Assembly (NCBI GenBank): GCA_041665505.1
Contig: JBAYIR010000001.1
Coordinates: 83,108 to 147,107, forward strand
Reading direction: 5' to 3'
Origin: Patescibacteria group bacterium
GTDB lineage: Bacteria; Patescibacteriota; Patescibacteriia; UBA1558; GWA2-36-10
Length of the DNA stretch: 64,000 nt
Of this stretch, positions 11,992-60,928 are shown piece by piece. The notes beneath the pieces were generated by a model. That model saw nothing but the letters and a program-made list of their open reading frames with translations, did no database searches and was not told the DNA's origin. The translations under genes were made by a program, and so were the position numbers. How positions within the stretch are numbered: the stretch's first letter is position 1; the number at the start of each line of letters is the position of its first letter.

Positions 11992-12143
11992 AATGCTACC
12001 TCCAAAATGAATAGGGGAAACTTCAGTTACAGGGATCTGTAACCGGGAAGATTGAAATGTTTTTCGCTCTTCCCCCAAATACCCTATAGATACTTGGGGT
12101 AAAAGCGAATATTAACTTATAAATTGGCACTATACAATATATA

Positions 12144-12172
12144 ATTGTAACATATTTTTATAATTATGTCAA
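12144..12172 (-). promoter_or_regulatory. near-consensus sigma70 promoter TTGACA-17-TACAAT driving cassette A1 (minus)
   Basis: plus tgtcaa 12167-12172 and attgta 12144-12149, 17-nt spacer. Confidence 0.5.
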
Positions 12173-12203
12173 TACAATAAAATTGAGCTTAAGTTGTTTA
12201 TTA

Positions 12204-12232
12204 TTGACAATTATTATATTTTATGATATAAT
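12204..12232 (+). promoter_or_regulatory. perfect consensus sigma70 promoter TTGACA-17-TATAAT driving cassette A2
   Basis: ttgaca 12204-12209, tataat 12227-12232, spacer exactly 17; AGGAGG at ~12288 then ATG 12303. Confidence 0.6.
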
Positions 12233-12302
12233 ACTATATTGGTTCGAGAACTGAAGTCTGTAAACCTGGCCAAGAAATTGGCCTTACCAGGAGGAAAGAA
12301 TC

Positions 12303-13037
12303 ATGTTGTTTAACAAGAACACTTCCAAGAAGCTTGCTCAGGGTTTTCTGATTCTGATCGGGTCGTTGTTGATTCTGGCTGTCGTCATCGCCTTGGTCGG
12401 CGAGGCCAAGGCTGGTCCGATTCCGCGCTGGGATCACAACAGTGACATTGGTATCTGGAACGAGAGCACCCACCCGCCGCGGGCAGAGGTCAGACTCAAC
12501 CTGATCAACGCCCAATCCACTGGTGTGGAATCTCGTCTCCAAGGCGTCTGCTACGACCTCCTGGAGAAGAAGGACAAACCCTACTACCTGTACTTGGGCT
12601 TCGGCTTCCAGAGCGGACACCTGGACATCGAACCGGCTCTTGGCTGGTCCTTTCGCGACAATGAGTGGGTGGCGGCCTTTCGCACTTATCCCGAGTGGGA
12701 GAAGTGGCGGGGCTACTCCAACTGCGAGTATCAACTCGAGACCAAGAGCTGGTACTATTTGGCTCAAATCGAAACCCACTTCAACCACTGGGTAGAGTGT
12801 GGTGCCGAGATGGAGGGTTGGGGCGACATCGACGACCAGTTGACCAGCAATGGTGCTGGTATCAATGTTGTTTTCAACACCCATCCGCGGTGGGGCAATC
12901 CGGACTCAAAACTCCGGATAGAAGCTGGCCTTCAGCTCCGAGAGATGGACTCGAAGTACAAACCGCAGCTCATCGTTCGATTCATATTTAGCCCGGAGAT
13001 GGAGGAGCACACGCCAGATCCTAGGAGGTGGAGATGA
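12303..13037 (+). CDS. high-GC hypothetical protein, N-terminal TM/signal anchor, Trp/Gly/Tyr-rich beta-type domain (foreign cassette A2)
   Basis: 244 aa; LAQGFLILIGSLLILAVVIALVG hydrophobic N-terminus; strong SD; first ~10 codons AT-richer than remainder; no family recognised. Confidence 0.55.
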   Translation: MLFNKNTSKKLAQGFLILIGSLLILAVVIALVGEAKAGPIPRWDHNSDIGIWNESTHPPRAEVRLNLINAQSTGVESRLQGVCYDLLEKKDKPYYLYLGFGFQSGHLDIEPALGWSFRDNEWVAAFRTYPEWEKWRGYSNCEYQLETKSWYYLAQIETHFNHWVECGAEMEGWGDIDDQLTSNGAGINVVFNTHPRWGNPDSKLRIEAGLQLREMDSKYKPQLIVRFIFSPEMEEHTPDPRRWR

Positions 13038-13088: not shown

Positions 13089-13229
13089 AGTTATAACAGG
13101 ATTGACAATATTTTATTTTTACTATATAATAATCACATAAATTCCTAGAAGGGCTAGGAAGTAAATAATTAAATAGCCAAAGACAGTAGGTTTCTAGCTA
13201 ATATTAGCCAAGAATTAAATATCCTGCCG

Positions 13230-13295
13230 AGGTAGAAAATTTTAAGTTTTTCAACTGTCTGCGCTATTTACGCAGATTTTTTTAATAAAAAATAT
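13230..13295 (+). promoter_or_regulatory. candidate rplJ (L10) leader with attenuator-like hairpin
   Basis: tctgcg-ctattta-cgcaga hairpin plus T7 run ending ~13289 just before rplJ ATG; L10 leaders are autoregulatory in many bacteria (established knowledge), identity here is inference. Confidence 0.3.
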
Positions 13296-23151: not shown

Positions 23152-23228
23152 GGGCATGTAGCTCAGTTGGTTAGAGCACTACATTCACATTGTAGGGGTC
23201 GAAGGTTCGAATCCCTCCATGCCCACCA
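23152..23228 (+). tRNA. tRNA-Val (anticodon CAC), CCA encoded
   Basis: Acceptor GGGCATG/CATGCCC, anticodon stem CTACA/TGTAG with loop TTCACAT, T-loop TTCGAAT. Confidence 0.75.
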
Positions 23229-23354
23229 TTCGACTCCGTTCTGCTCTGCAGAACTTCGCTCATGGTCTGCGACCACAAAAGTAAATTAAAATATAAGGTG
23301 TCGAATGTCCTGAGCGGAGTCCTGAGTTTATCGGAGGACGAAGTCGAAGGACAT
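23226..23354 (+). ncRNA. conserved structured tRNA 3'-trailer element, copy 1 (unknown family)
   Basis: Starts at the tRNA-Val CCA with TTCGACTCCG. Shares hairpin, ACTTCGCTCA/TGAGCGRAGT long-range pair, TGGTC/GACCA stem and CATTCGACTCC/GG(A/T)GTCGAATG closing helix with copies at 28003..27891(-) and 58824..58946(+). Followed by weak hairpin plus T7. Confidence 0.5.
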
Positions 23355-23383
23355 TAAAAATCAGTTTTATTTAAGGACTGTTT

Positions 23384-23430
23384 TTTTGTTGAAAAAAGAA
23401 GGCCGCCGCCACGTCAGACGTGGCGGCGGC
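23384..23430 (-). terminator. GC-rich palindromic terminator of cassette B1
   Basis: gccgccgccacg-tcaga-cgtggcggcggc 12-bp stem; A-run on plus (T-run on minus) at 23391-23397. Confidence 0.6.
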
Positions 23431-23445
23431 ATGAAGCGATATGAC

Positions 23446-24111
23446 CTAGCCGAGGTCGGCTTGGTCGAGGAGGCTCTTCTCGTATCTCTCGGCCACTTCG
23501 AGCTGATGCATCAGCCCATCGATGGCCATCTGGATGAGGTCTTCCCGGCAGGTCGGGACAGCTACAAAGCGTCTAGCCGCTTTGTCAGTTGGGAACATCA
23601 CAACCATCCACCAGCCTGCGGTAATTCCGCCGATTCCTTTGACCTTGCTACCGTAGGTGGTTGCCTTACCATCGACGATATCGTCGGGATTCTCCAAGCC
23701 GTAGCCATGGAAGCAGCGATAGTCGGGACCATGACGCTTGAATCGCAGGACCGCCACGACGGGTATTCTCACGTATTGATGGTACGTGGCAGCAGAGCAG
23801 CTGGTCGCCCTGACGATCTCGTTGTAGAACCCATCTTTGCGCTGAATTCTGATCAGCTGGTCAGAGAGGTCTCCCAGGACCGTCTTGATCTCCGAGCTGT
23901 CTGCAATCGGCCGTGCTATGACCGTGGTGGCCTGGGGGTTGACCTTGATGTCCAGCAGTGCAAAGCCGGCTTTTGCCAAGCTGATGGGGGACTCCGGATC
24001 GAGGGTGCCAGTAGCTACATCGTCTCTACCGATTCCCCAACGAAAACAATGATTGCCGTCGAGCCGTACCACACCAGTGGTGTAGATGGGGTCACAATTT
24101 TGTGCCTGCAT
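23446..24111 (-). CDS. high-GC hypothetical cytoplasmic protein (foreign cassette B1)
   Basis: Preferred start ATG 24111 with GGAGG(24123..24119)-7 nt-ATG, giving 221 aa; track start 24147 lacks SD. Natural-looking composition, unlike the plus-strand antisense ORF 23386..24153. No family recognised. Confidence 0.5.
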   Translation of the reverse strand: MQAQNCDPIYTTGVVRLDGNHCFRWGIGRDDVATGTLDPESPISLAKAGFALLDIKVNPQATTVIARPIADSSEIKTVLGDLSDQLIRIQRKDGFYNEIVRATSCSAATYHQYVRIPVVAVLRFKRHGPDYRCFHGYGLENPDDIVDGKATTYGSKVKGIGGITAGWWMVVMFPTDKAARRFVAVPTCREDLIQMAIDGLMHQLEVAERYEKSLLDQADLG

Positions 24112-24193
24112 TGGGAATCCTCCAGATTTAGTTGCATTTGTCTGCATTTATGATGCCTGCTGGCACCATTGTTCCTAGAGTTAGGAACAAAGT

Positions 24194-24222
24194 ATTATAC
24201 TATTATTTATTTTTTTTGTCAA
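24194..24222 (-). promoter_or_regulatory. perfect consensus sigma70 promoter TTGACA-17-TATAAT driving B1 (minus)
   Basis: plus attata 24194-24199, tgtcaa 24217-24222, 17-nt spacer counted. 5' UTR begins with 7-bp hairpin gttccta-actc-taggaac. Confidence 0.6.
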
Positions 24223-24235
24223 TGGTTGTTATATT

Positions 24236-24278
24236 TAAAGAAAATTAAGACCGCCGCGCATCCAGGGACGCGCGGCGG
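24236..24278 (-). terminator. GC-rich hairpin terminator of cassette B2
   Basis: ccgccgcgc-atccagggac-gcgcggcgg 9-bp stem, A/T-rich tract on minus side after hairpin. Confidence 0.55.
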
Positions 24279-24290
24279 CTACGGAGGATA

Positions 24291-24791
24291 CTACGGAAGT
24301 ATCTTCCAGACGGTAGGATTTCTTTTCCGGAAACTCTTGATGCTCTGCTCTCGGTGCATATTTTTGGCCAACACTACGGCCAAGATCAGAAGCATCAGAG
24401 CCATGAGGCTCTTGAACAGAGCCAAAATCCCTTGACCTAAAGGAGCGTGGATGGTGTGGACGGACATCGTCGCAACCAGTTTGTCTCCTTTGGTCTCGTA
24501 GACCATGAACTGGTACTGACCGAAGACGATCAGTGCTTCTTCGCCACTTTTGATGGTGGCGAGGTGCCGGCTGTTCTTGATGACCTTGAAGTAACACTCC
24601 TTGGAGTCGATGGTGACCAGCGCATGTTCGCTAATCTTGAAATCGACACTGTCGCCGTCCCGAAGGACAGCTCCAGTCACAGGAATCCGGTCATTCTCCG
24701 AACGAATATGGAGCTCGATAGCTCCTTCGCTCGCACGGACGACGGTGGTGGCACAGATCAGAATGGCGATGGTCAGAAGAAGAGTCTTCAT
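24291..24791 (-). CDS. high-GC secreted protein with N-terminal signal peptide and C-terminal TM anchor (foreign cassette B2)
   Basis: 166 aa; MKTLLLTIAILICATTVVRASEG signal peptide; C-terminal LMALMLLILAVVLA hydrophobic helix; AAAGGA SD 8 nt before ATG. Confidence 0.5.
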   Translation of the reverse strand: MKTLLLTIAILICATTVVRASEGAIELHIRSENDRIPVTGAVLRDGDSVDFKISEHALVTIDSKECYFKVIKNSRHLATIKSGEEALIVFGQYQFMVYETKGDKLVATMSVHTIHAPLGQGILALFKSLMALMLLILAVVLAKNMHREQSIKSFRKRNPTVWKILP

Positions 24792-24894
24792 GTCGCGAGT
24801 CCTTTCGCTTGCAGTTTCAGGTTCCTTCCCTCTTTATTTTAAAGGCTTTTGAGCCTTTTGTGACGTCAATGAGCTTGCTTTAAGCAATTATCTA

Positions 24895-27890: not shown

Positions 27891-28003
27891 GTGTCCTTCG
27901 GTTCGCTATGCTCACTCAGGACATTCGACACCTTATATTTTAATTTACTTTTGTGGTCGAAGACCATGAGCGAAGTTCTGCAAAGCAGAACGGAGTCGAA
28001 TGG
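27891..28003 (-). ncRNA. conserved structured tRNA 3'-trailer element, copy 2 (inverted relative to copy 1)
   Basis: Reverse complement is identical to copy 1 over ~95 nt except two substitutions, both in hairpin loops (tc->tt, tgc->ttc); begins at the tRNA-Lys CCA. Confidence 0.5.
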
Positions 28004-28077
28004 TGCGCCCAGAGGGATTCGAACCCCCGACCGTTTGCTTAAAAGGCAACTGCTCTACCAGGCTGAGCTATAGGCGC
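28001..28077 (-). tRNA. tRNA-Lys (anticodon TTT), CCA encoded
   Basis: Reverse complement GCGCCTATAGCTCAGCCTGGTAGAGCAGTTGCCTTTTAAGCAAACGGTCGGGGGTTCGAATCCCTCTGGGCGCACCA folds as cloverleaf, anticodon loop CTTTTAA. Confidence 0.85.
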
Positions 28078-33685: not shown

Positions 33686-33730
33686 AATATACAGTGAGGG
33701 CTATTTTTGTTTTGTTTATTTTTTTAAGAT
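33686..33730 (+). terminator. rho-independent terminator after hydrolase gene
   Basis: gctctca-atataca-gtgagggc stem (one G.U) followed by long T-rich run. Confidence 0.45.
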
Positions 33731-33890
33731 AAATATATTTGATTCAGCCATTCGCGAAGGGCTGGATTGACAAAATGGGGTTTTTGTGTTAAAAATTATA
33801 GTTATTCGCGATTCATAGGCTTTGGGCTTATGGGTCACTGTTCCCCAGGCAAGTTGAAGCACCCCGAACCGAACATGGAGGTTTTAAGTC

Positions 33891-34613
33891 ATGACTCGCA
33901 AGCCCGTGATTCAAACAGCTCTCGAAAGCCTTGACCGTCAGATTGATGACAGAGTGGTCATCGACATTGACGGCGATGTGGATGAGGCCCAGCACATGCT
34001 TTACGCGTTTCGCACTTCGGTGGAAGAGGTGATCTTCGAAGGAGACAACACCGAAGAGTGTCGTCGGCAGTGCCTGGCCAACCTGACCAAGGTCGGCTAC
34101 CTGGAAGAGGCCATCAAGGAGTTGATGACTTTCTCCAAGCGGAGTCGGCGAGCGGTTCGTCGGTGGCTCTATGGGGAAGTTGTTCCTCAGCGAGTTGATT
34201 GGCTGCGGTGGCAGTACTGGCTTCGCGCCAAGGGGTACTACACGCGCGAGCTTGACCACATGCCCAACAGCTTCTTCCAGTTGCGCAAGCACATCCTCTG
34301 TGGCGATATCAGCTTCGCGGTTGCCGCCAAGGAGCTTGGTTGCACTCAGAAGGTTCTTCGGGGCATTCTGAACAATGAGGTGGACAGAGCTGTGATCATC
34401 AGTATCATCGGCAATGTCCACCATCTGGTGGCCAAGATCAACCGGCAGATCAGCCATCGGGAGATTGTCGGTTACATGGAGGTCTATTTGGATTCCGACG
34501 GCGAGTTTGCCGAAGTGAATCGGCGCTACAACCTGGACAACCAGAAGCGTCGTCGTAAGGTGGCTCACAAAGCTGCCAAGGCTCGCCGCAAGGCCAGGTC
34601 TTCCAAGAGCTAG
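33891..34613 (+). CDS. high-GC hypothetical protein with strongly basic C-terminal tail (foreign cassette C)
   Basis: 240 aa; GGAGG 9 nt upstream of ATG; C-terminus KRRRKVAHKAAKARRKARSSKS suggests nucleic-acid binding; TTGACA at 33767 with weak TAAAAA -10 at 17 nt; GC-rich hairpin 34638-34670 downstream. Opposite-strand ORF 33828..34568 judged antisense artefact. Confidence 0.5.
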   Translation: MTRKPVIQTALESLDRQIDDRVVIDIDGDVDEAQHMLYAFRTSVEEVIFEGDNTEECRRQCLANLTKVGYLEEAIKELMTFSKRSRRAVRRWLYGEVVPQRVDWLRWQYWLRAKGYYTRELDHMPNSFFQLRKHILCGDISFAVAAKELGCTQKVLRGILNNEVDRAVIISIIGNVHHLVAKINRQISHREIVGYMEVYLDSDGEFAEVNRRYNLDNQKRRRKVAHKAAKARRKARSSKS

Positions 34614-34760
34614 GCCACCACGGCCAGCGGCTAGATTTACCCCGGACTGCGTCCAAGCAGCCCGGGGTAAAAAATTGTAAAAATTAAGGCAAAATTAGCC
34701 AGAATTATTAAGTTATGATATTATATATCAACAAATACACCTTAAATCAGGCTTTAGATT

Positions 34761-39118: not shown

Positions 39119-40099
39119 ATGAAAAATAAAAATATAATAGCCAAATTAAAAATAGCTGATTTGCGCGGACGAGGGGGCGCTGATTTTCCTACTTATCTAA
39201 AATGGGAAATGATGGCGAGTACTAAGGCTAAAAATAAATATATTGTAGCTAATGGTAGTGAAGGAGAACCAAATGTTCTCAAAGATGGCTATATTTTAAA
39301 AAATCATCCAGAGTTGTTGATAGAGGGAATAAAAATTGCTTTAGAGACTTTTAAAGGATCTGAAGCTTTTATTTTTTTAAGGCGAGATTATTTCAAAAAA
39401 TATAAAAAGCAATTAGATAAATTAGTGGGTGATTTACCAATTACTGTTTTTAGAGAACATGGTGGATATTTGTCTGGTGAGGAAACTGTGCTTTGTGAAG
39501 AAATTGAAAAAAGTCTGCCAGCCCGTCCTAGAACCAAGCCGCCTTTTCCAGGTCAAGCTGGTATATATGGATTGCCGACTTTGATAAATAATATAGAAAC
39601 TTTTTATTATATTGCTAAAATTGCTAGAGATGATTATCAGCAGACAAGATTGTATAGTATCACTGGTAAAGTCCTACATAAAGGAGTTTTTGAACTGCCG
39701 GTAGTTTGGTCTATTAAAAAGATTTTAGAAGCTACTAAAAATAGTCCAGACTTTGATTATTTTGTCCAAGTCGGTGGTGGAGCCAGTGGTGATATATTAT
39801 TGCCTGCAGAAACTACGCAAAAAGTATCTGGTAGTGGGGCTATTGTTGTTTATGACAAAGAGCAGACAGATCCCTGGGTCTTGATGCGCACTTGGATTGA
39901 TTTTTTCATGCGAGAAAATTGTGACAAATGCACACCTTGTCGGGAAGGCACTTATCGGATACTAGAGATGATTAGAAACAGACAATTTGATAAAAAGATT
40001 TTGGATGATTTATTTTTTGTTTTAGAAAATACTAGTTTTTGCGCGTTGGGTAAATCTATACCATTGCCTTTTAGATCAGTTATTAAAAAATTATTATGA
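39119..40099 (+). CDS. NuoF-like NADH-binding flavoprotein subunit (hydrogenase diaphorase / HndC-like)
   Basis: 326 aa; LRGRGGADFPTYLKW matches NuoF GLRGRGGAGFPTGLKW; C-terminal CDKCTPCREG 4Fe-4S motif. Confidence 0.75.
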   Translation: MKNKNIIAKLKIADLRGRGGADFPTYLKWEMMASTKAKNKYIVANGSEGEPNVLKDGYILKNHPELLIEGIKIALETFKGSEAFIFLRRDYFKKYKKQLDKLVGDLPITVFREHGGYLSGEETVLCEEIEKSLPARPRTKPPFPGQAGIYGLPTLINNIETFYYIAKIARDDYQQTRLYSITGKVLHKGVFELPVVWSIKKILEATKNSPDFDYFVQVGGGASGDILLPAETTQKVSGSGAIVVYDKEQTDPWVLMRTWIDFFMRENCDKCTPCREGTYRILEMIRNRQFDKKILDDLFFVLENTSFCALGKSIPLPFRSVIKKLL

Positions 40100-41823
40100 A
40101 CGCTAAGAAAATTTCAATTTTTATCAATAAGCAGAAATATTCCGCTCAGCTAGGCGAAAGTGTTTTGGATGTGGCTAGAAGAAACAATATACATATTACT
40201 ACCTTATGTCATCATCCCGATGTAAAAATTCAGGGTTCTTGTCGTTTATGTTTGGTAGAAATAACAGGTCGTAAAGGTTTATTTACAGCTTGCAGTACCA
40301 AAGTGGAAGAGGCTATGAAAGTGGTCACTGATTCCAAAGATATCTCTAGAGCTAAACAAACAAATTTAGAGTTAATATTTGCTGAGCATTGTGAAGAATG
40401 TGGAGATTGTATTTATAGTCAAAATTGTACTATCAAAGAATATGCCAAAAAGTATAATATTAAAATAACTAAATATCCTGATCGCAAAAAAGGCTATCCT
40501 GTACACAAATTTGGTCCAGCTCTACAGTTTGATAGCTCTAAGTGTATTGATTGTGGTTTGTGTGTAGAAATTTGTAAAAAAGAAGGTGTAGATTTTTTGG
40601 AGTTTAAGAAAAACAGAAAGTTTTATGAAGTTAGTCCATCTTGTAAAAAGTCTAAAGATTGTATTTATTGTGGGCAATGTTTAACTCATTGTCCAGTGGG
40701 AGCTTTTGAAGGTATAGGGGAATTTGAAGATGTGGATAAGTATATAAATATCAAAGGTAAAACAGTGGTTTTTCAGTTTGCACCATCTATTCGCTCTACT
40801 ATTGGTGAAGAGTTTGGCCTGCCAGTTGGATCAGTTGTGACCGGTAAACTGGTGGCTGCTATCAAAGCTTTAGGTATTAAGCATGTTTTTGATGTTTCAG
40901 TTGGCGCTGATATTACTACTATGGAAGAAGCTACCGAACTCCTAGAGAGGTTAAAAGAAAATAAAGCACTACCGATGTTTACTTCTTGTTGTCCAGCCTG
41001 GGTTAAATATGTAGAATTTTTTCGGCCAGATATGATAGCCAATTTAACTACAGTGCGTAGTCCACAAATTATTATGGGCGGTCTTATCAAGACCTACTGG
41101 GCCAAAGAAATGAATATTAACCCTAAAGATATTGTAGTAGTGGCAATTATGCCTTGTGTGGCCAAAAAATATGAAATTGACAGAAGTCAAAACAAAATAA
41201 ATGGTTTAAAAGCTGTTGATCAAGTATTAACCACTAGAGAATTAGCCCATTTACTGCGTAAGAAAAAAATTGATTTAGCTACTATCAAAGCTGAGGTGGC
41301 TAAATCACCACTACTTAAACCAAGCGGAGCCGGAGTGATTTATGGAGCCTCGGGTGGTGTAATGGAGTCAGCTCTTCGAGCTGCTTATAGAAAAATAACT
41401 GGACGTAGAATGCCCCAGTTACAACTGCAGGCAGTGCGCGGTATCGCAGGCTTTAAAAAAGCTAAGATTAAAATAACTGGACGGACTATTAAAGTGGGAG
41501 TAGTCAATGGTATTGCCAATGCCAAGAGAATTTTGGCAGAGTTAGAAAAAAATCCTCAGGCTTATGATTATATAGAAGTAATGGCTTGTTTTGGTGGTTG
41601 TATTGGCGGTGGAGGACAGCCAGTGCCAGTTGATGATGAAATTAGGAGAAAACGTTCAGCTGGACTTTATAATGAAGACAATAAAAATATTTTGCGTAGT
41701 GCTGATGAAAATCCAATTATCAAAAAATTATATCAAGATTTTTTCAGTGACCACAAAAATATCCATAACGTTTGTCACACTAGTTTTATAAAAAAGAAAA
41801 AAGAAGTTTTTCCAGCTAAATAA
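40096..41823 (+). CDS. hydA: [FeFe]-hydrogenase catalytic subunit HydA
   Basis: 575 aa; N-terminal 2Fe-2S ferredoxin-like fold (NuoG-like), two CxxCxxCxxxCP ferredoxin motifs, and H-cluster motifs L1 FTSCCPAWV, L2 MPCVAKKYE, L3 EVMACFGGCIGGGGQP. Confidence 0.85.
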   Translation: MNAKKISIFINKQKYSAQLGESVLDVARRNNIHITTLCHHPDVKIQGSCRLCLVEITGRKGLFTACSTKVEEAMKVVTDSKDISRAKQTNLELIFAEHCEECGDCIYSQNCTIKEYAKKYNIKITKYPDRKKGYPVHKFGPALQFDSSKCIDCGLCVEICKKEGVDFLEFKKNRKFYEVSPSCKKSKDCIYCGQCLTHCPVGAFEGIGEFEDVDKYINIKGKTVVFQFAPSIRSTIGEEFGLPVGSVVTGKLVAAIKALGIKHVFDVSVGADITTMEEATELLERLKENKALPMFTSCCPAWVKYVEFFRPDMIANLTTVRSPQIIMGGLIKTYWAKEMNINPKDIVVVAIMPCVAKKYEIDRSQNKINGLKAVDQVLTTRELAHLLRKKKIDLATIKAEVAKSPLLKPSGAGVIYGASGGVMESALRAAYRKITGRRMPQLQLQAVRGIAGFKKAKIKITGRTIKVGVVNGIANAKRILAELEKNPQAYDYIEVMACFGGCIGGGGQPVPVDDEIRRKRSAGLYNEDNKNILRSADENPIIKKLYQDFFSDHKNIHNVCHTSFIKKKKEVFPAK

Positions 41824-41845: not shown

Positions 41846-42358
41846 ATGGCTTTAACACAAACTTTAACTTGGGACAGGACTAAAACCATAAGTGCTGTGC
41901 AGTTTGTATCTTTACTTAGTATTGCTACTATTGCTCCATTATTTCATCAACAATGGTTGACTGGCCCCATAGTCAACGCTATGTTTTTAATAGCAGTGGT
42001 ATTACTTGGTAGTCAAAACGCTATTATTTTGGCTTTACTGCCTAGCACTATTGCTCTGGGTGTGGGACTTTTACCAGCTTTGCTAGCACCCATGGTACCT
42101 TTTATTATTATTTCCAATGTCATATTTATTTTGGGTTTTAGCTATTTAAGGGAAAAGAATTTTTTCTTAGCAGTTATAGTAGCTAGTGTTTTAAAATTTA
42201 TTTTTTTATGGTCAACTAGTTTTGTAGTGATAAATCTACTGCTTAAAAAAGAATTAGCTACTAGTGTTTCTGGTATAATGTCTTGGCCACAGTTGGCTAC
42301 AGCTCTAATAGGTGGAATGCTAGCTTACATATTTCTCAAAGGAATTAAAAAGATATAA
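41846..42358 (+). CDS. polytopic membrane protein (possible ECF-type substrate-binding component)
   Basis: 170 aa, 5-6 hydrophobic helices; no confident family. Confidence 0.35.
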   Translation: MALTQTLTWDRTKTISAVQFVSLLSIATIAPLFHQQWLTGPIVNAMFLIAVVLLGSQNAIILALLPSTIALGVGLLPALLAPMVPFIIISNVIFILGFSYLREKNFFLAVIVASVLKFIFLWSTSFVVINLLLKKELATSVSGIMSWPQLATALIGGMLAYIFLKGIKKI

Positions 42359-42363
42359 AAAAT

Positions 42364-42402
42364 AGCCCCTGACACTAAAATTTGTAGGGGCTTTTTTATT
42401 TT
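42364..42402 (+). terminator. rho-independent terminator
   Basis: agcccctgacactaaaatttgtaggggct hairpin followed by tttttatttt. Confidence 0.6.
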
Positions 42403-42427
42403 GACTAATTTGGCTGATTGGTATACT
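42401..42427 (+). promoter_or_regulatory. promoter TTGACT-15-TATACT upstream of cassette D
   Basis: ttgact 42401-42406, tatact 42422-42427; 15-nt spacer is short. Confidence 0.35.
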
Positions 42428-42465
42428 TTTAGTTTACACCCATCCCTGTGAAAGGAGGGAAAACC

Positions 42466-42717
42466 ATGTCTAGAGGCAGCATCGACAGAAGAGAAATCTT
42501 CATTGACATCACAGTGCCTGTCGAGCACTCTCAGGCATTTCTGGCCCGCCTCACAGCGGACAAGCAGTACAGTGTAGACGAGCTACACTGCCACCAAGCC
42601 CAGGATGGGTATCACATCAGGATTACCGCCCAGGTAATCGACCAGGTAAAATGCCTCCAATTTATCAAAGCTCTGGCCATAGAGCTTGGTATGGACGGCA
42701 TGACCAACAAGGCCTAG
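42466..42717 (+). CDS. high-GC small cytoplasmic protein, 83 aa (foreign cassette D)
   Basis: AGGAGG(42453-42458)-gaaaacc(7 nt)-ATG 42466; track ORF 42448 begins at a GTG inside the SD. MSRGSIDRREIFIDITVPVEH...; no family recognised. Confidence 0.5.
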   Translation: MSRGSIDRREIFIDITVPVEHSQAFLARLTADKQYSVDELHCHQAQDGYHIRITAQVIDQVKCLQFIKALAIELGMDGMTNKA

Positions 42718-42726
42718 TTTGATGAG

Positions 42727-42757
42727 AAGACCAGCACGGAGGCTGGTCTTTAATTTT
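42727..42757 (+). terminator. hairpin terminator of cassette D
   Basis: agaccagc-acgga-ggctggtct followed by ttaatttt. Confidence 0.6.
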
Positions 42758-42818
42758 GACAAAAATAGCAATTTATGTTAATTTGAGCAGAATTGTTTTG
42801 AATCATTAATCCATTAAT

Positions 42819-44438
42819 ATGAATAAAAAAGTCATCAAATTTGTCTATTTTAGCTTTCTACTCCTTACACTGATGTCAGTGTCTGCTTGTGGCAAGAAGG
42901 ATAAAGAGGAAGATAAAGTAGAAATAAAGAAAAAAGTGCAAGTACAGAATATTGTTAAGCAGAATGAAGTCACTTCTAACTTACTATTAAGTGCCACAGT
43001 AGTACCTCAAGAATATAGTATTATTCGTTCACTTAGTCCTGGCACAGTAGAGTTTTTAGCACCAGTGGGTTCAGAAATATCTGCTGGGCAAGCTTTATTT
43101 TCCATTAGAGATTCAGGTATAGAAAATAATTATTTTAATACTTTACAGAGTTTTCAACAGACTCAGATTGTCAGTAGTCAAGGTATTTCTCAAGCTGAAC
43201 TTAGTCTAAATAGTGCCAAGGCTAGGTTAGATTTATCCAGGATACAATACAATAATACGATTATTCAAACTGAGCAGGCTCTAGCTAACACTCAAGATTC
43301 AGCGGTGGCAAATTATAATTCGGCTTATAATACTTTAAAACAGTTTTATTTATTTTTAAATAAAGATTTGGATTTAAGAGATAAAGAATATGTATATAAT
43401 GACCTTTTAACTCCTCAAATTCAATTAAAGTCAGATTTAAATCTAAAATTTAATAATTCGCTGGATTATTTTAATGGAATAGCTAATACAGTAACGGTTG
43501 ATGATGTTAGAGAAAATATGCCAAGATTACAACAAGCCTTGGCGCTCAGCAAAGACGTAGTAGATGATACTGTAATTTTACTCCAGAGCGCAGTGAGTAG
43601 TAATATGTTTCCTACTCTGACTATAGAATCTGATAAAGGCACTATGATTAGTTATCAAGCCACTATTAATACTCATTTATCAGGAATAATTGCCGCTATC
43701 AATTCTATAGTAAACACAGGCTCTTCAAATAATTTAGCCATTAATAATGCTCAATCACAGTTAGATTTAGCGGAAATAGAATATAAGAATTCAGAGATTG
43801 CTTTGCAGAACTCCAAAGATGGAGCTAATCTTCAAACTAGTGCTATGCAATCACAGCTTGATCAAGCCGCTTACAATTATAATAATTTGACATTATCATC
43901 ACCTTTTTCTGGGACTATATTGTCTCATTTCGTCGCTATAGGAGAGCAAGTCTCAATGGGCCGTGAACTAATAGAGATAGGTAATCTTTCGTTAGTGGAA
44001 ATGACCGTTGATATGGATGTTGAATTTGCTAAAGCAGTTAAATTGGCTGATGAAGTAAAGATTAATAATAAATATACTGGCCTGATAACTGAAATAGAAC
44101 CTATTGGAGATCTGACTAGCGGTAAAGTCAGTGTTACAGTTCAAAGTCAACCAGGCGATGAAGATTTATCAGCTGGTAGTATTGCGGAATTGGAATTTAT
44201 TTTACATTATGAAAGTGTTGAAGCTATAGTTATTCCTATAAAATCAGCCACTATTGAATCTTCTGGTAATTATGTCTATGTAGTAGTAGACGGCAAAATT
44301 TCTAGAAAAAATGTTACTTTAGGTCAGATTTTTGGAGATAAGGTGTCTGTTTTAAGTGGTTTAACAGAGGGGGATAAATTGGTAATTTTAAATGGCGTAT
44401 TTGTATCTAATGACGAAGCAGTAGATATTATTGAATAA
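42819..44438 (+). CDS. RND efflux periplasmic adaptor (membrane-fusion protein, HlyD family) lipoprotein
   Basis: 539 aa; signal peptide with lipobox LMSVSAC; long coiled-coil; C-terminal beta-barrel region LSSPFSGTILSHFVAIGEQVSMG. Confidence 0.7.
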   Translation: MNKKVIKFVYFSFLLLTLMSVSACGKKDKEEDKVEIKKKVQVQNIVKQNEVTSNLLLSATVVPQEYSIIRSLSPGTVEFLAPVGSEISAGQALFSIRDSGIENNYFNTLQSFQQTQIVSSQGISQAELSLNSAKARLDLSRIQYNNTIIQTEQALANTQDSAVANYNSAYNTLKQFYLFLNKDLDLRDKEYVYNDLLTPQIQLKSDLNLKFNNSLDYFNGIANTVTVDDVRENMPRLQQALALSKDVVDDTVILLQSAVSSNMFPTLTIESDKGTMISYQATINTHLSGIIAAINSIVNTGSSNNLAINNAQSQLDLAEIEYKNSEIALQNSKDGANLQTSAMQSQLDQAAYNYNNLTLSSPFSGTILSHFVAIGEQVSMGRELIEIGNLSLVEMTVDMDVEFAKAVKLADEVKINNKYTGLITEIEPIGDLTSGKVSVTVQSQPGDEDLSAGSIAELEFILHYESVEAIVIPIKSATIESSGNYVYVVVDGKISRKNVTLGQIFGDKVSVLSGLTEGDKLVILNGVFVSNDEAVDIIE

Positions 44439-58751: not shown

Positions 58752-58823
<72 letters not shown>

Positions 58824-58826
<3 letters not shown>

Positions 58827-58946
58827 TTCGACTCCGTCCCGCTAAAGCGGGACTTCGCTCATGGTCTTCATCCTCACCGCCATAGGCGGTTCGGATTGCG
58901 ACCACTTTTCTAGGAGTCGAATGCCCTGAGCGAAGTCGAGGGGCAT
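58824..58946 (+). ncRNA. conserved structured tRNA 3'-trailer element, copy 3 (divergent, with compensatory stem changes)
   Basis: TTCGACTCCG then hairpin gtcccgc-taaa-gcgggac (vs gttctgc-tc-gcagaac in copies 1/2), conserved ACTTCGCTCA...TGAGCGAAGT pair, TGGTC/GACCA stem carrying an inserted ccgcc-ata-ggcgg hairpin, perfect 11-bp closing helix CATTCGACTCC/GGAGTCGAATG. Confidence 0.5.
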
Positions 58947-59123: not shown

Positions 59124-59414
59124 ATGGCCAAGCAATTTGATATCACTGGTGGTCCCTCGCGGGAAGAGCTCTTTGACGCTCTGCGCCTGAGGCATGAGAA
59201 CAGGAAGCCTGTCTTCCACGTGCCGTACATCAGAGGAGGCTGTTTCGTAGTCAGTGTCGATGCCATCGGCATCGAAGACGGCAGTGGCGACAACTGGCTG
59301 TTGCAGCTACATGACCCTAATGGTCTTCTCGGGGCCAATCATTTGAAGGCCTACTTCAACACTGTCACGCGCAGGGGTTGGATGAAGCCCTTGGACTTGA
59401 AGCCCTTGGACTGA
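59124..59414 (+). CDS. high-GC small protein, 96 aa (foreign cassette E)
   Basis: GAGGAGG 4 nt before ATG; MAKQFDITGGPSREELFDALRLRHENRKPVFHVPYIRGGCFVVSVDAIGIEDGSGDNWLLQLHDPNGLL; no family recognised; antisense ORF 59036..59338 rejected. Confidence 0.5.
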   Translation: MAKQFDITGGPSREELFDALRLRHENRKPVFHVPYIRGGCFVVSVDAIGIEDGSGDNWLLQLHDPNGLLGANHLKAYFNTVTRRGWMKPLDLKPLD

Positions 59415-59620: not shown

Positions 59621-60928
59621 ATGTTTAAAATGAACTTAAACAAGTACTTAATTCTTTCTTTAGTCATTCTAACGGGCTTTGGCTCATTAGTAGCTAATGC
59701 CAAGGAAGATTTAATTATTTCTGGTGATACAATAGCCGAAGTATTGACTGATGAACCTACTTTAGCAATTTGTGACCATAATGGTGATGGTTTTAGGAAT
59801 TTAAGTGATGTGAGTCTATTTGCCGAAGTTAAGGATTCCTTCTCTCTTTCTGAAATTGCTGAATATGCTGAACACAATCAAGATAACGATTGGTGTGAAG
59901 CACATTTTTGGCCTTCTGAAAGAGTAGAGGAAACTACAGCTACTTTGGCTATCTGTGACCACAATGGAGACCATGTCAGAAATTTAAGCGATGTAGCTAT
60001 GTTTGCTGAATGTGCTGAGACATTTGATGTCGATGGTAATGGTATCCATGATTTGTCTGATATATCTTTGTATACTTCAAACAACCAAGACGACACTTGG
60101 TGTGCTAGTGATTTTGATTGTGAGGCTATTCCCAATGCTGAGCCAGCTTATGTTACTGAAAATCTAGATGTAGTTTCTAGCACTTTAGCTATTTGTGACC
60201 ACAATGGTGATGGTTTAAGAAATCTAAGTGATGTCAGTGAATTTGCTTCTTGTGTTGATACTTTTGATGCCAATGGTGATAATAGACACGATCTATTAGA
60301 TACTAGTGCTTATGCTTCAAATAACCAAGATAACATTTGGTGTAGAGATAGCTTTGTTTGTGATGTGGCTACTAGTACAGAAGCTCTTTATAGTACTGAA
60401 GTGGTAGAAGAACCAGTTACTCCTTTAGCTATTTGTGACCACAATGGTGATGGTTTAAGAAATCTAAGTGATGTCAGTGAATTTGCTTCTTGTGTTGATA
60501 CTTTTGATGCCAATGGAGATGGTGTGCATAACTTAGAAGATGTAAGTGAATATGCTACAAATAAGTTTAGAACTGATACTTGGTGTACTACAACTTTTGA
60601 ATGTGTAGCTACTCCTAAATCTGTTTTAGCTGGTGGATCAACTTTTTTCAACCAACCAATATCTGAAATTGAAGGCGAAGTTTTAGGTGAAAAAATTGAA
60701 GCAGAAGAAGATGTTTTAGAAACAGAAGTTTGTACTTATAATACTCCAGATGCTGATATATTAGGAAAAACTGATTGGTCTGACGGTAGTTTGATTAGAG
60801 GTTGCGGACCAGAAATTTATGTTATTGAGAATCAACAAAAGCGTCATATCAGATCTTTAGAAGAATTATTCAATTATATTGGTCAAAGAATTAATAATGT
60901 TACTAACGATATATTGAGTTTATTCTAA
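59621..60928 (+). CDS. secreted protein with four dockerin/EF-hand-like Ca-binding repeat modules
   Basis: 435 aa; signal peptide MFKMNLNKYLILSLVILTGFGSLVANA; four ~80-aa modules LAICDHNGDGxRNLSDV...DxNGDGxHxLxD...NNQDxxWC; two modules identical at DNA level over >110 bp (60181-60300 vs 60421-60540). Confidence 0.6.
   Translation: MFKMNLNKYLILSLVILTGFGSLVANAKEDLIISGDTIAEVLTDEPTLAICDHNGDGFRNLSDVSLFAEVKDSFSLSEIAEYAEHNQDNDWCEAHFWPSERVEETTATLAICDHNGDHVRNLSDVAMFAECAETFDVDGNGIHDLSDISLYTSNNQDDTWCASDFDCEAIPNAEPAYVTENLDVVSSTLAICDHNGDGLRNLSDVSEFASCVDTFDANGDNRHDLLDTSAYASNNQDNIWCRDSFVCDVATSTEALYSTEVVEEPVTPLAICDHNGDGLRNLSDVSEFASCVDTFDANGDGVHNLEDVSEYATNKFRTDTWCTTTFECVATPKSVLAGGSTFFNQPISEIEGEVLGEKIEAEEDVLETEVCTYNTPDADILGKTDWSDGSLIRGCGPEIYVIENQQKRHIRSLEELFNYIGQRINNVTNDILSLF

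What the first reader, a model, noticed from the sequence alone, without database searches (positions are those of the whole stretch)
42401..42757. Island D: minimal high-GC cassette encoding an 83-aa protein (AGGAGG-7-ATG) between a membrane-protein gene and the RND efflux operon
The ORF caller picked a GTG inside the SD. The real start is ATG 42466 with the same AGGAGG plus 7-nt geometry seen in the other cassettes. It is flanked by its own TTGACT/TATACT promoter and a GC hairpin terminator. Small His/Gln/Asp-containing proteins of this size could be an immunity, antitoxin or regulator-type component.
Basis: partly seen in the sequence, partly recalled or inferred. Interest (0 to 1): 0.55.

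Follow-up and report, generated by a model that had tools for sequence, protein, structure and literature searches.

The report
Small Shine-Dalgarno-led gene beside hydrogenase cluster
This is a real, self-contained gene for an 83-residue protein of unknown function; it is not a mobile cassette but a fast-evolving, lineage-specific gene fixed next to a hydrogenase cluster in a group of ultra-small (Patescibacteria) bacteria, and it stands out because it has a very strong ribosome-binding site and high G+C where all its neighbours have neither.

Summary
An 83-codon ORF (ATG 42466 to TAG 42717) has AGGAGG followed by 7 nt before the ATG, its own promoter-like site, a strong hairpin terminator, and 52% GC (GC3 0.65) against neighbours at 33-34% (GC3 0.22-0.25).

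The "cassette" reading does not hold. An exhaustive HMMER search found about 10 small homologues (35-53% identity, aligned from Met1). In every lineage with readable flanks the gene sits directly after a NuoF-like gene, an [FeFe]-hydrogenase gene and a 170-aa membrane-protein gene, while the downstream genes differ. There are no flanking repeats, no integrase, and no phage or plasmid relatives.

The host is a Parcubacteria-type Patescibacteria MAG. None of its 48 ordinary genes in the window has a Shine-Dalgarno site. The small gene keeps an 8-11 nt one in all nine lineages, and higher GC3 than its flanks in seven of them.

The protein evolves 4-5 times faster than the adjacent membrane protein. 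The predicted fold is a generic beta-alpha-beta-beta-alpha sandwich of the ACT/ferredoxin type (pLDDT 79) with no significant structural or family match. One homologue is a tandem fusion, which suggests a dimer.

Function is unknown. My best guess is a separately expressed, Shine-Dalgarno-dependent small binding or regulatory protein. An antitoxin or immunity role is unsupported.

The parts
39119..41823 (+). Context: a NuoF-like flavoprotein gene (39119-40099) and an [FeFe]-hydrogenase group A gene (40096-41823). They form the conserved upstream synteny block.
   Evidence: NCBIfam TIGR02512 scores 450 bits against a cutoff of 406, and there are nuoF_fam hits. The same pair lies upstream of the small gene in wherever flank is available (HydA in L001, L003, L006, L011, L014, L016, L020 and the P0019 contig; the NuoF-like gene also in the four loci long enough to show it).
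41846..42358 (+). Context: a 170-aa multi-pass membrane protein. It resembles an ECF-transporter S-component or riboflavin transporter, but NCBI labels it 'iron hydrogenase'. In 8 of 9 lineages it is the immediate upstream neighbour.
   Evidence: Homologues carry PF12822, and JGI names some 'riboflavin transporter'. The L006 orthologue gives a weak PF12822 hit at E = 0.004. It is 73-87% identical between lineages.
42364..42398 (+). Intrinsic terminator of the 170-aa gene: AGCCCCT...AGGGGCT followed by T6. It separates the small gene from the upstream operon.
   Evidence: Folds at -15.8 kcal/mol, z = -3.84, with 0 of 200 shuffles as good.
42401..42427 (+). Sigma-70-type promoter-like site: -35 TTGACT (42401-06), a 15-nt spacer, and an extended -10 TGgTATACT (42419-27).
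   Evidence: Read from the sequence. It is conserved at the same place in 6 of 7 diverged homologous loci and is identical, apart from one C/T change in the -10, in five related strains.
42428..42465 (+). 5' leader. It holds a conserved TTAGTT(C/T)T..CAC motif, a pyrimidine tract (CCATCCCT, 42440-42447) that can pair with the Shine-Dalgarno site, and the extended Shine-Dalgarno site GAAAGGAGG (42450-42458) placed 7 nt before the ATG.
   Evidence: The Shine-Dalgarno site is present in all nine lineages while their neighbouring genes have none. The pairing with the pyrimidine tract is weak and not significant.
42466..42717 (+). Coding sequence for the 83-aa protein (MFA6466358.1, WCV71_00675). 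It belongs to an unnamed small-protein family with a predicted beta-alpha-beta-beta-alpha fold.
   Evidence: 10 homologues; alignments: M1, P18, L74, G75 invariant; I6, D14, V17, R28, D38, I51, R52, E73 at 90% or more; AF2 pLDDT 74 and 79; GC1/2/3 of 0.56/0.33/0.65.
42726..42757 (+). Intrinsic terminator: a 10-bp hairpin (core GACCAGC-ACGGAG-GCTGGTC) followed by TTTAATTTT.
   Evidence: The 20-nt core is 100% identical in three lineages whose coding sequences are only 55-61% identical. It occurs only once in the window.
42756..42784 (+). Context: a promoter-like site for the downstream RND efflux operon (TTGACA, 17 nt, TGtTAATTT). It shows that the small gene is not co-transcribed with the efflux genes.
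   Evidence: Read from the sequence. This is an inference: the consensus scan did not list it on the + strand.

Best explanation
Island D is a genuine monocistronic gene. It has its own sigma-70-type promoter, a ~38-nt leader, an extended Shine-Dalgarno site (GAAAGGAGG, then 7 nt), ATG 42466, 83 codons and its own intrinsic terminator.

It encodes a small cytoplasmic alpha+beta protein of a previously unnamed, fast-evolving family. The family is confined to one clade of Parcubacteria-type Patescibacteria; the neighbouring membrane protein's closest named relative is from Candidatus Komeilibacteria. The gene is inherited in place, always directly downstream of the NuoF-like / [FeFe]-hydrogenase / 170-aa membrane-protein genes. 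It is not a mobile cassette.

What sets it apart is how it is expressed. In genomes whose ordinary genes have no Shine-Dalgarno site, it keeps an 8-11 nt complement to the canonical 16S rRNA 3' tail. It also keeps conserved promoter and terminator signals, G+C above its surroundings, and in this lineage an unusually structured mRNA.

Inferred mechanism:
1. The mRNA is a stable, structured message that ribosomes load through Shine-Dalgarno pairing rather than through the AU-rich, Shine-Dalgarno-independent route used by the rest of the genome. This gives expression that is separately controlled and probably high or conditional.
2. The protein works as a dimer of ACT/ferredoxin-like beta-alpha-beta-beta-alpha domains. 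The exposed sheet face carries the conserved D14, T16, H50 and R52, and binds a small ligand or a partner protein.

Sub-confidences:
- Real coding gene: 0.97.
- Vertically retained, lineage-specific gene rather than a mobile cassette: 0.8.
- Shine-Dalgarno-dependent special expression class: 0.55.
- ACT-like dimeric binder or regulator: 0.25.
For: Shown:
- Homologues of 73-88 aa, plus one 143-aa tandem fusion, at E = 3.8e-18 to 5e-4. They align from Met1 with conserved core motifs (FIDITVP, HIRI, ELG).
- Coding-type GC periodicity across codon positions.
- The identical locus in five independent assemblies.
- Fixed position after HydA and the 170-aa gene in every lineage, with different downstream genes: the RND operon here, ECF sigma plus a 483-aa gene in L006 and L012, MarR then RND in L020, Asx-tRNA synthetase in L011 and the P0019 contig.
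- No repeats flanking the locus.
- No PHROG family, no meaningful PADLOC hit (one weak NsnC match on a homologue, E = 0.0056), and no phage, plasmid or IMG/VR relatives.
- 0 of 48 host genes in the window have GGAGG within 25 nt upstream, whereas 5-6 of 7 high-GC genes do.
- In L001, L006, L011, L012, L014, L015 and L020 the small gene carries AGGAGG, and none of the roughly 30 housekeeping neighbours does.
- The Shine-Dalgarno variants (GAAAGGAGG, AAGGAGGTGAT, AAAGGAGGTGA) all fall in register with the canonical 16S tail.
- GC3 exceeds the flanks in 7 of 9 lineages.
- The promoter is conserved in 6 of 7 lineages, and the terminator core is identical in 3 lineages.
- mRNA folding z = -6.0 to -6.7; the coding sequence alone gives -5.2 on the + strand and -1.6 on the - strand. 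The background is -0.8 +/- 1.4.
- AF2 topology is beta-alpha-beta-beta-alpha with pLDDT 74-79. The nearest structural matches are ACT, RAM, PII and KH-type sandwiches.
- The tandem-fusion homologue P0020 supports a dimer.
Against: - Function is not shown by any tool. All structural matches are non-significant (E >= 0.02, TM <= 0.6), and no Pfam, NCBIfam or PDB sequence match exists.
- The fold lacks the fourth strand of a canonical ACT domain.
- The 16S rRNA is not in the window. About half of Parcubacteria reportedly lack the anti-Shine-Dalgarno motif (PMC9297842), so whether the AGGAGG really works as a Shine-Dalgarno site here is inferred, not shown.
- The strong mRNA-structure signal is specific to this lineage. 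Homologue coding sequences give z of -0.7 to -2.1, and a few ordinary windows reach z of about -4.5.
- The predicted long-range pairing between the Shine-Dalgarno region and the coding sequence is broken in sister strains.
- Low synonymous divergence (pS 0.057 against 0.18-0.35 in flanking genes) is matched by other local high-identity tracts, so it could be a recombination mosaic.
- The extreme GC3 in this lineage (0.65) could still reflect replacement by a copy from a GC-richer relative.
Confidence: 0.55

Rival explanations
1. The unit is a recently acquired foreign gene, either from a higher-GC, Shine-Dalgarno-using donor or as a xenologous replacement of the resident copy by one from a GC-richer Parcubacteria relative. 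It would be one of several independent insertions in this genome.
For: - GC3 is 0.65 against 0.22-0.25 in the flanks, and a strong Shine-Dalgarno site stands in a Shine-Dalgarno-less genome.
- Six other ORFan genes in the window share this signature.
- At least one of them (island C) is replaced by a barely related gene (24% identity over 92 residues) in a sister strain.
- The small protein is much more diverged between lineages (35-54%) than its neighbours (73-87%).
- HGT among Patescibacteria is reported to be common (PMC12455944).
Against: - The gene sits in the same slot in at least nine lineages, with conserved promoter, leader, Shine-Dalgarno site and terminator.
- All homologues lie in the same Patescibacteria context. 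No donor-type homologue was found among 1.84 billion representatives.
- The GC3 excess recurs across deeply diverged lineages, where a foreign signature should have ameliorated.
- There are no repeats, tRNA or integrase at the borders.
Confidence: 0.15
2. The protein is an accessory or regulatory subunit of the adjacent NuoF-like/[FeFe]-hydrogenase module or of the 170-aa S-component-like membrane protein. For example, it could be a redox- or metabolite-sensing ACT-like partner.
For: - The gene is always linked to HydA, and in 8 of 9 lineages to the 170-aa gene, while the downstream genes vary.
- ACT-like folds are typical small-molecule sensors.
Against: - It has its own promoter and lies behind the terminator of the upstream operon.
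- It evolves 4-5 times faster than HydA or the 170-aa protein.
- It has no Cys or His cluster motif; the two Cys are only partly conserved.
- More distant Parcubacteria keep the NuoF/HydA/170-aa trio but carry an unrelated 95-aa ORFan in the slot.
- The 170-aa family is far wider (637 or more clusters) than the small-protein family (about 10).
Confidence: 0.15
3. The protein is an antitoxin, immunity protein or other conflict-system component.
For: - It is small and evolves fast: dN/dS of 0.27-0.71 between strains against 0.06-0.24 in the flanks.
- One weak PADLOC hit on a homologue (NsnC, E = 0.0056).
Against: - It is monocistronic, with no toxin or effector partner. Its neighbours are a conserved transporter-like protein and an efflux operon.
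- The window protein itself has no PADLOC, PHROG or Pfam hit.
- Its position has been stable over deep divergence, unlike typical defence islands.
Confidence: 0.07
4. The functional product is mainly a structured RNA, or a dual-function RNA, and the ORF is incidental. High GC in an AT-rich genome is a classic sign of a non-coding RNA.
For: - mRNA folding z = -6 to -6.7, strand-specific.
- Three perfect 7-8 bp hairpins lie inside the coding sequence.
- All four strain substitutions in local stems keep the pairing.
- The terminator hairpin is identical across lineages.
Against: - Conservation is at the protein level, down to 35% identity, with a fold-consistent pattern and conserved N-termini.
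- GC3 > GC1 > GC2 periodicity indicates coding sequence.
- Homologue coding sequences are not unusually structured.
- No Rfam family scores at or near its gathering threshold.
- The predicted long-range pairs are not conserved.
Confidence: 0.05

Closest known systems
ACT / RAM / PII-type small alpha+beta sandwich domains (ferredoxin-like beta-alpha-beta-beta-alpha-beta), such as the regulatory domains of aspartokinase or IlvN
   Same: - Similar size, about 70-80 residues.
- The same order of the first five elements, beta-alpha-beta-beta-alpha.
- They are the best, though non-significant, Foldseek matches.
- They tend to act as dimers. Here a natural tandem fusion exists.
   Different: - There is no sequence-family match: Pfam and NCBIfam are empty, and MgtC_SapB_C scores only E = 0.13.
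- The fourth strand is missing from the model.
- It lacks the glycine-rich beta1-alpha1 ligand loop; the sequence there is VPVEH.
- It is a stand-alone protein and is not fused to or next to an enzyme it would regulate.
Rare Shine-Dalgarno-led genes in Shine-Dalgarno-poor bacteria, for example rpsU (bS21) in Bacteroidota, where the anti-Shine-Dalgarno sequence is sequestered. This comparison rests on my own knowledge of that literature and was not tested here.
   Same: The genome's ordinary genes lack a Shine-Dalgarno site, while one or a few genes keep a very strong, conserved one. That implies a separate mode of translation initiation.
   Different: - The phylum is different.
- The protein is not a ribosomal protein; it is acidic to neutral, not basic.
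- The presence and accessibility of the anti-Shine-Dalgarno sequence in this organism is unknown. It is reported missing in about half of Parcubacteria (PMC9297842).
Compositionally atypical genomic islets acquired by HGT in Patescibacteria (PMC12455944)
   Same: - The G+C and codon signature departs sharply from the host genome.
- The content is ORFan.
- Several such genes occur per genome, and some vary between strains.
   Different: - Island D is positionally conserved over deep divergence.
- It has no mobility genes or boundary repeats.
- It has no identifiable donor.
Type II antitoxins and small immunity proteins
   Same: It is small, cytoplasmic and fast-evolving.
   Different: It has no adjacent partner gene, forms a transcription unit of its own, and gives no defence-family hit.

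Membership tests
ACT domain (Pfam clan ACT) | A significant sequence-profile match to an ACT-clan family | tested here: not met
   Pfam found no family at E <= 0.1. Across 13 family members the best clan-related hit is MgtC_SapB_C at E = 0.13, 13 bits against a cutoff of 27.
ACT domain (Pfam clan ACT) | A beta-alpha-beta-beta-alpha-beta fold with a four-stranded antiparallel sheet | tested here: inconclusive
   The AF2 models give beta-alpha-beta-beta-alpha with no fourth strand. Foldseek hits to the ACT domains of aspartokinase and PAH have TM 0.53-0.59 and E = 0.06-0.25, which is not significant.
Dodecin | A beta-alpha-beta-beta fold of about 70 aa that matches solved dodecins | tested here: not met
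   No dodecin appears among the top 50 PDB matches of either model, and no Pfam hit was found.
Type II toxin-antitoxin / immunity pair | A partner toxin or effector gene adjacent in the same operon | tested here: not met
   The gene is bounded by a terminator upstream and its own terminator downstream. Its neighbours are an S-component-like membrane protein and an RND adaptor.
Type II toxin-antitoxin / immunity pair | A match to a known antitoxin or defence family | tested here: not met
   PADLOC, PHROGs, Pfam and NCBIfam gave nothing for the window protein.
Mobile gene cassette / genomic island | Boundary repeats or att sites, an integrase or transposase, or a tRNA target | tested here: not met
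   No direct or inverted repeat flanks 42400-42760. The nearest tRNA is about 6.6 kb away. No mobility gene lies nearby.
Mobile gene cassette / genomic island | Variable presence or position among related genomes | tested here: not met
   The gene is present at the same site in all six strain-level loci and in every more distant lineage examined.
[FeFe]-hydrogenase subunit or maturase (HydC/NuoE-like, HydE/F/G) | Sequence similarity to a known subunit or maturase | tested here: not met
   NCBIfam and Pfam found no hit. Only synteny links it to HydA.
Shine-Dalgarno-led exceptional genes in a Shine-Dalgarno-poor genome | A strong Shine-Dalgarno site at canonical spacing while the bulk of the genome's genes have none | tested here: met
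   GAAAGGAGG followed by 7 nt precedes the ATG. None of 48 host genes has GGAGG upstream. The same contrast holds in seven other loci.
Shine-Dalgarno-led exceptional genes in a Shine-Dalgarno-poor genome | A 16S rRNA 3' tail carrying the complementary anti-Shine-Dalgarno sequence | not testable with these tools
   No rRNA gene lies in the window, and the rest of the MAG cannot be fetched. There is only indirect support: the Shine-Dalgarno variants in different lineages all match the canonical tail in register.
Known non-coding RNA family (Rfam) | A covariance-model match at the gathering score | tested here: not met
   Nothing reached gathering. The best sub-threshold hit is isrJ, 27.4 bits against 37, on the minus strand over the terminator.

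The most novel reading that the evidence does not exclude
These Parcubacteria may run two translation-initiation regimes.

- The housekeeping genome would be read without Shine-Dalgarno pairing.
- A small set of GC-rich, structured, fast-evolving ORFan genes, each with its own promoter and terminator, would keep very long Shine-Dalgarno sites and form a separately gated 'Shine-Dalgarno regulon'. Island D would be its most stably inherited member.

This set might be translated only when the anti-Shine-Dalgarno tail is available, or by a ribosome subpopulation. Selection for this mode of expression, through stable structured mRNA, rather than foreign origin would then explain why high GC3 persists against the genome's AT mutation bias.
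Probability: 0.2. Interest if true: 0.7.

Novelty: new variant of a known kind. Interest (0 to 1): 0.42.

Why it matters
Taken alone, this is one more small hypothetical protein. Its value is as a clean, comparative example of two things.

1. A compositional 'island' in a Patescibacteria genome is not necessarily recent HGT. The anomaly here is tied to a gene that has kept its position, promoter, Shine-Dalgarno site and terminator through deep divergence.
2. Genomes that have abandoned Shine-Dalgarno-led initiation for nearly all genes can retain a handful of genes with extreme Shine-Dalgarno sites. If this class is real, it gives a direct handle on how ribosomes of these reduced bacteria choose messages, given that some are reported to lack the anti-Shine-Dalgarno motif. 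It also marks which unknown genes the cell treats specially.

The work also flags a widely propagated misannotation: a 170-aa S-component-like membrane protein is called 'iron hydrogenase'.

Tried and rejected
- Word-indexed protein search with the single sequence found only itself. The exhaustive search was needed.
- Pfam, NCBIfam, PHROGs, PADLOC and PDB sequence-profile searches gave nothing usable.
- Foldseek of both AF2 models against PDB and BFVD returned only generic alpha+beta sandwiches with E >= 0.02. Dodecin, antitoxin and HPF/RaiA-like ideas were dropped for lack of any match.
With a narrower alignment, the GTDB, metagenome and IMG/VR scans added only L016, L019 and L020. They also returned two spurious hits, L017 (a hydrolase fragment) and L021 (15 aa).
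- Shared repeats between islands: none involve island D.
- A hairpin sequestering the Shine-Dalgarno site in the leader: pairing exists in most lineages, but the energies equal those of shuffles and the consensus energy is -1 kcal/mol. I kept it only as a hint.
- Synonymous-site constraint: pS of 0.057 against 0.18-0.35 looked striking. Sliding-window identity shows equally conserved tracts inside ordinary genes, so I do not claim it.
- RNA structure as a family trait: rejected, because homologue coding sequences have ordinary z-scores and the long-range pairs break in sister strains.
- A whole-window z-score scan at fine step timed out.
- Homology between the 83-aa family and the 95-aa ORFans that occupy the same slot in distant Parcubacteria: hhalign probability 0.3%.
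- Paralogy among the seven high-GC proteins: none.
Full report
**Source and setting.** The window comes from a Patescibacteria (CPR) metagenome-assembled genome with NCBI locus tags WCV71_* and roughly 33-36% GC. The flagged ORF is annotated there as hypothetical protein MFA6466358.1. Upstream lie a NuoF-like gene (39119-40099), an [FeFe]-hydrogenase group A gene (40096-41823; TIGR02512 at 450 bits against a cutoff of 406) and a 170-aa membrane-protein gene (41846-42358). Downstream lie an RND adaptor (42819-44438) and an RND pump.

**Check of the observation.**
- The terminator hairpin at 42726-42751 plus T-tract folds at -16.3 kcal/mol (z = -3.8).
- The promoter spacer is 15 nt, so the consensus scan did not report it. 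The -10 has a TG extension, and the arrangement is conserved in other lineages.
- The 170-aa gene ends with its own hairpin terminator at 42364-42398 (z = -3.84).
- A TTGACA-17-TAATTT site at 42756-42784 precedes the RND genes. The ORF is therefore an isolated transcription unit.
- The longest ORF starts at GTG 42448 (89 aa). IMG called that version and NCBI called the ATG version. Homologue N-termini settle it in favour of ATG 42466.
- Composition: the ORF is 52% GC with GC1/2/3 of 0.56/0.33/0.65. Neighbours have GC3 of 0.22-0.25.

**It is a real protein-coding gene.**
- The word-indexed search found only the protein itself.
- The exhaustive HMMER search of 1.84 billion representatives found 10 proteins with E <= 1e-3. 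Eight of the nine retrieved are 73-88 aa at 35-52% identity, and one is a 143-aa tandem duplication; the tenth, a 1,797-aa protein matching only residues 31-55, was set aside.
- The alignment shows M1, P18, L74 and G75 invariant. I6, D14, V17, R28, D38, I51, R52 and E73 are conserved at 90% or more.
- The pattern GC3 > GC1 > GC2 is that of coding sequence.
- Rfam finds nothing at or near gathering.

**It is not a mobile cassette.**
- The same locus is 98% identical in five independent assemblies from other samples (L001-L005).
- In every more distant lineage with readable flanks the gene directly follows the 170-aa gene, which follows HydA. This holds in L006, the P0019 contig, L012, L014/L016, L015 and L020.
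- In L011 the tandem version follows HydA directly.
- Downstream genes differ: the RND operon here, MarR then RND in L020, an ECF sigma gene plus a 483-aa gene in L006 and L012, and Asx-tRNA synthetases in L011 and the P0019 contig.
- No repeats flank the locus and no tRNA or mobility gene adjoins it.
- No relative exists in PHROGs, the phage and plasmid collections or IMG/VR, and PADLOC gave only one weak hit on a homologue (NsnC, E = 0.0056).

**What is unusual: the expression signals.**
- Of 48 ordinary genes in the window, none has GGAGG within 25 nt of its start. Their leaders are AT-rich.
- Five of the seven high-GC genes have GGAGG or AGGAGG at 4-9 nt. A sixth does if its start is moved to 24111.
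- The same contrast holds at every homologous locus. The small gene has AGGAGG, extended to 8-11 nt of complementarity to the canonical 16S tail: GAAAGGAGG, AGAAAGGAGG, AAGGAGGTGAT, AAAGGAGGTGA. About 30 neighbouring housekeeping genes have none.
- The promoter is conserved in 6 of 7 lineages, and a leader motif (TTAGTTCTTCAC) follows it.
- The 20-nt terminator core GACCAGCACGGAGGCTGGTC is identical in three lineages whose coding sequences share only 55-61% of their bases. It occurs only once in the window.
- Tsurumaki et al. (PMC9297842) report that the anti-Shine-Dalgarno motif is undetectable in about half of Parcubacteria 16S genes. The 16S gene of this organism is not in the window, so whether the site works by canonical pairing is inferred, not shown.

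**What is unusual: composition.**
- Genes in the window fall into two classes. Forty-eight have GC3 of 0.18-0.35, including ribosomal proteins L10, L7/L12 and L21 at 0.20-0.25, which excludes expression-linked codon bias.
- Seven ORFans have GC3 of 0.58-0.71.
- For island D the GC3 excess over the flanks recurs in other lineages:

| Lineage | Small-gene GC3 | Flank GC3 |
|---|---|---|
| L001 | 0.62 | 0.22-0.23 |
| L006 | 0.55 | 0.28-0.37 |
| L020 | 0.51 | 0.23-0.31 |
| L008 | 0.46 | 0.28 |
| L011 | 0.31 | 0.19-0.21 |
| L015 | 0.27 | 0.12-0.22 |

- L012 and L014 show no contrast; their genomes are GC-richer.
- These lineages differ by 46-65% at the protein level, so a one-off foreign signature should have decayed. 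Something maintains it, or copies are exchanged. I cannot tell which.

**RNA structure.**
- The predicted transcript (42434-42756) folds at -121.4 kcal/mol against -88 +/- 5.5 for shuffles, z = -6.0 to -6.7.
- The coding sequence alone gives z = -5.2 on the + strand and -1.6 on the - strand.
- Ordinary 250-nt windows average -0.8 +/- 1.4, with a minimum of -4.75.
- The signal comes from local perfect hairpins (for example 42573-42593, 42621-42639 and 42668-42689) and the terminator.
- In sister strains all four substitutions in local stems keep the pairing. Five substitutions break the predicted long-range pairing between the Shine-Dalgarno region and the coding sequence.
- Homologue coding sequences are not unusually structured (z of -0.7 to -2.1). 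The structure is therefore a lineage feature and not a defining trait of the family.

**Evolutionary rate.**
- Between lineages the 170-aa neighbour is 73-87% identical, while the small protein is only 35-54% identical.
- Window against L006: NuoF-like 69%, HydA 75%, adaptor 59%, small protein 45%.
- Among strains, dN/dS is 0.27-0.71 against 0.06-0.24 for the flanks, and pS is 0.057 against 0.18-0.35.
- Sliding-window identity shows other equally conserved tracts, so I make no claim of synonymous constraint.

**Structure and function.**
- AF2 gives beta(10-17), alpha(19-33), beta(40-45), beta(48-56), alpha(57-74), with pLDDT 74 from the single sequence and 79 with 12 homologues.
- Foldseek against PDB and BFVD returns only generic two-layer alpha+beta domains: KH, ACT of aspartokinase and PAH, PII-like, and EF-G domains. 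Their E-values are >= 0.02 and TM-scores <= 0.6.
- From the alternation of residues in beta1 (F12, D14, T16) and beta3 (H50, R52, T54), the conserved polar residues should lie on the open face of the sheet. This is an inference.
- The tandem-fusion homologue points to a dimer.
- I therefore favour a dimeric ACT-like binder or regulator, at about 25% confidence.
- A role as a hydrogenase subunit is weakened by three points: the separate promoter and terminator, the fast rate, and the situation in more distant Parcubacteria. Those genomes keep the NuoF/HydA/170-aa trio (L022, L025-L027) but carry an unrelated 95-aa ORFan in the slot (hhalign probability 0.3%). That ORFan is again Shine-Dalgarno-led with raised GC3.

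**The 170-aa neighbour.** NCBI labels it 'iron hydrogenase', but many of its listed homologues carry PF12822 (ECF-transporter S component) and JGI names some 'riboflavin transporter'. One close homologue (86%) is from Candidatus Komeilibacteria, which places the organism near that group.

**Verdict.** The 'cassette' interpretation is replaced by a positionally fixed, lineage-restricted, fast-evolving small gene with exceptional expression signals. Function remains unknown. Novelty is moderate: an unnamed family and a clear case of a Shine-Dalgarno-led gene class in Shine-Dalgarno-less Parcubacteria. The wider two-class pattern across the window is the part most worth following up.

Noticed in passing
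window 10798-13037, 23230-24800, 33891-34613, 42466-42717, 59124-59414: Genes in the window fall into two classes. Seven ORFan genes have GC3 of 0.58-0.71, and five or six of them have GGAGG/AGGAGG Shine-Dalgarno sites. All 48 other genes have GC3 of 0.18-0.35 and no Shine-Dalgarno site. None of the seven has a Pfam domain, and they are not paralogues of one another.
   Followed up: partly
window 23197-23314 and 27915-28032; also 58847-58876: A 118-nt inverted repeat (93% complementary) covers the 3' end of tRNA-Val (23152-23228), the start of tRNA-Lys (28001-28077, minus strand) and about 85 nt beyond each. A 30-nt partial copy lies just after tRNA-Thr (58752-58826). Each copy borders a high-GC island. 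They could be att-site remnants or a tRNA-linked element (repeats I1 and I13).
   Followed up: no
window 33700-34650 versus L001 900-1700: Island C, between an alpha/beta-hydrolase gene and valS, varies between strains. The window has a 240-aa ORFan. Sister strain L001 has a different 190-aa protein (24% identity over 92 residues, with an HTH-like segment). That protein is also GC-rich (GC3 0.61) and has its own promoter and an AGGAGG site. L001 additionally carries a tRNA-like sequence before valS.
   Followed up: partly
window 41846-42358: NCBI annotates the 170-aa membrane protein as 'iron hydrogenase'. Its family (637 or more clusters across Parcubacteria) carries PF12822, the ECF-transporter S component, and JGI calls some members 'riboflavin transporter'. 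The name is probably a propagated misannotation arising from its position next to HydA.
   Followed up: partly
L022 4555-4842; L026 4846-5133 and 4522-4764 (minus strand): In more distant Parcubacteria the slot after NuoF-like/HydA/170-aa holds an unrelated 95-aa ORFan. In L026 there is also an 80-aa ORFan on the opposite strand. These too have strong Shine-Dalgarno-like sites (AAGGAGGTGA; GAAAGGAG) and GC3 above their flanks. The slot seems to collect, or rapidly turn over, Shine-Dalgarno-led small genes.
   Followed up: partly
window 24109-24123 (minus strand): GGAGG followed by 7 nt and an ATG lies inside the 233-aa ORF of island B. This suggests its true start is ATG 24111 (MQAQNCDP...) and not 24147.
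   Followed up: no
window 13159-13291 and upstream: The L10 leader and rplJ-rplL are preceded by high-GC island A and a YceG-like gene, not by rplK-rplA. Tsurumaki et al. link loss of uL1 with loss of the anti-Shine-Dalgarno motif in Parcubacteria, so checking whether this genome lacks uL1 would be relevant.
   Followed up: no
window 59621-60928: A 435-aa protein has four or five repeats of about 80 aa carrying 'LAICDHNGDGxRNLSDVS' motifs, which look like dockerin or EF-hand calcium-binding repeats (D1/D2).
   Followed up: no
L011 1450-1707 (minus strand); P0019 contig 6377-6616 (minus strand): In two lineages a further small ORFan (85 and 79 aa) lies convergent to the small gene. The L011 copy also has GAAAGGAGGG before its ATG.
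   Followed up: no
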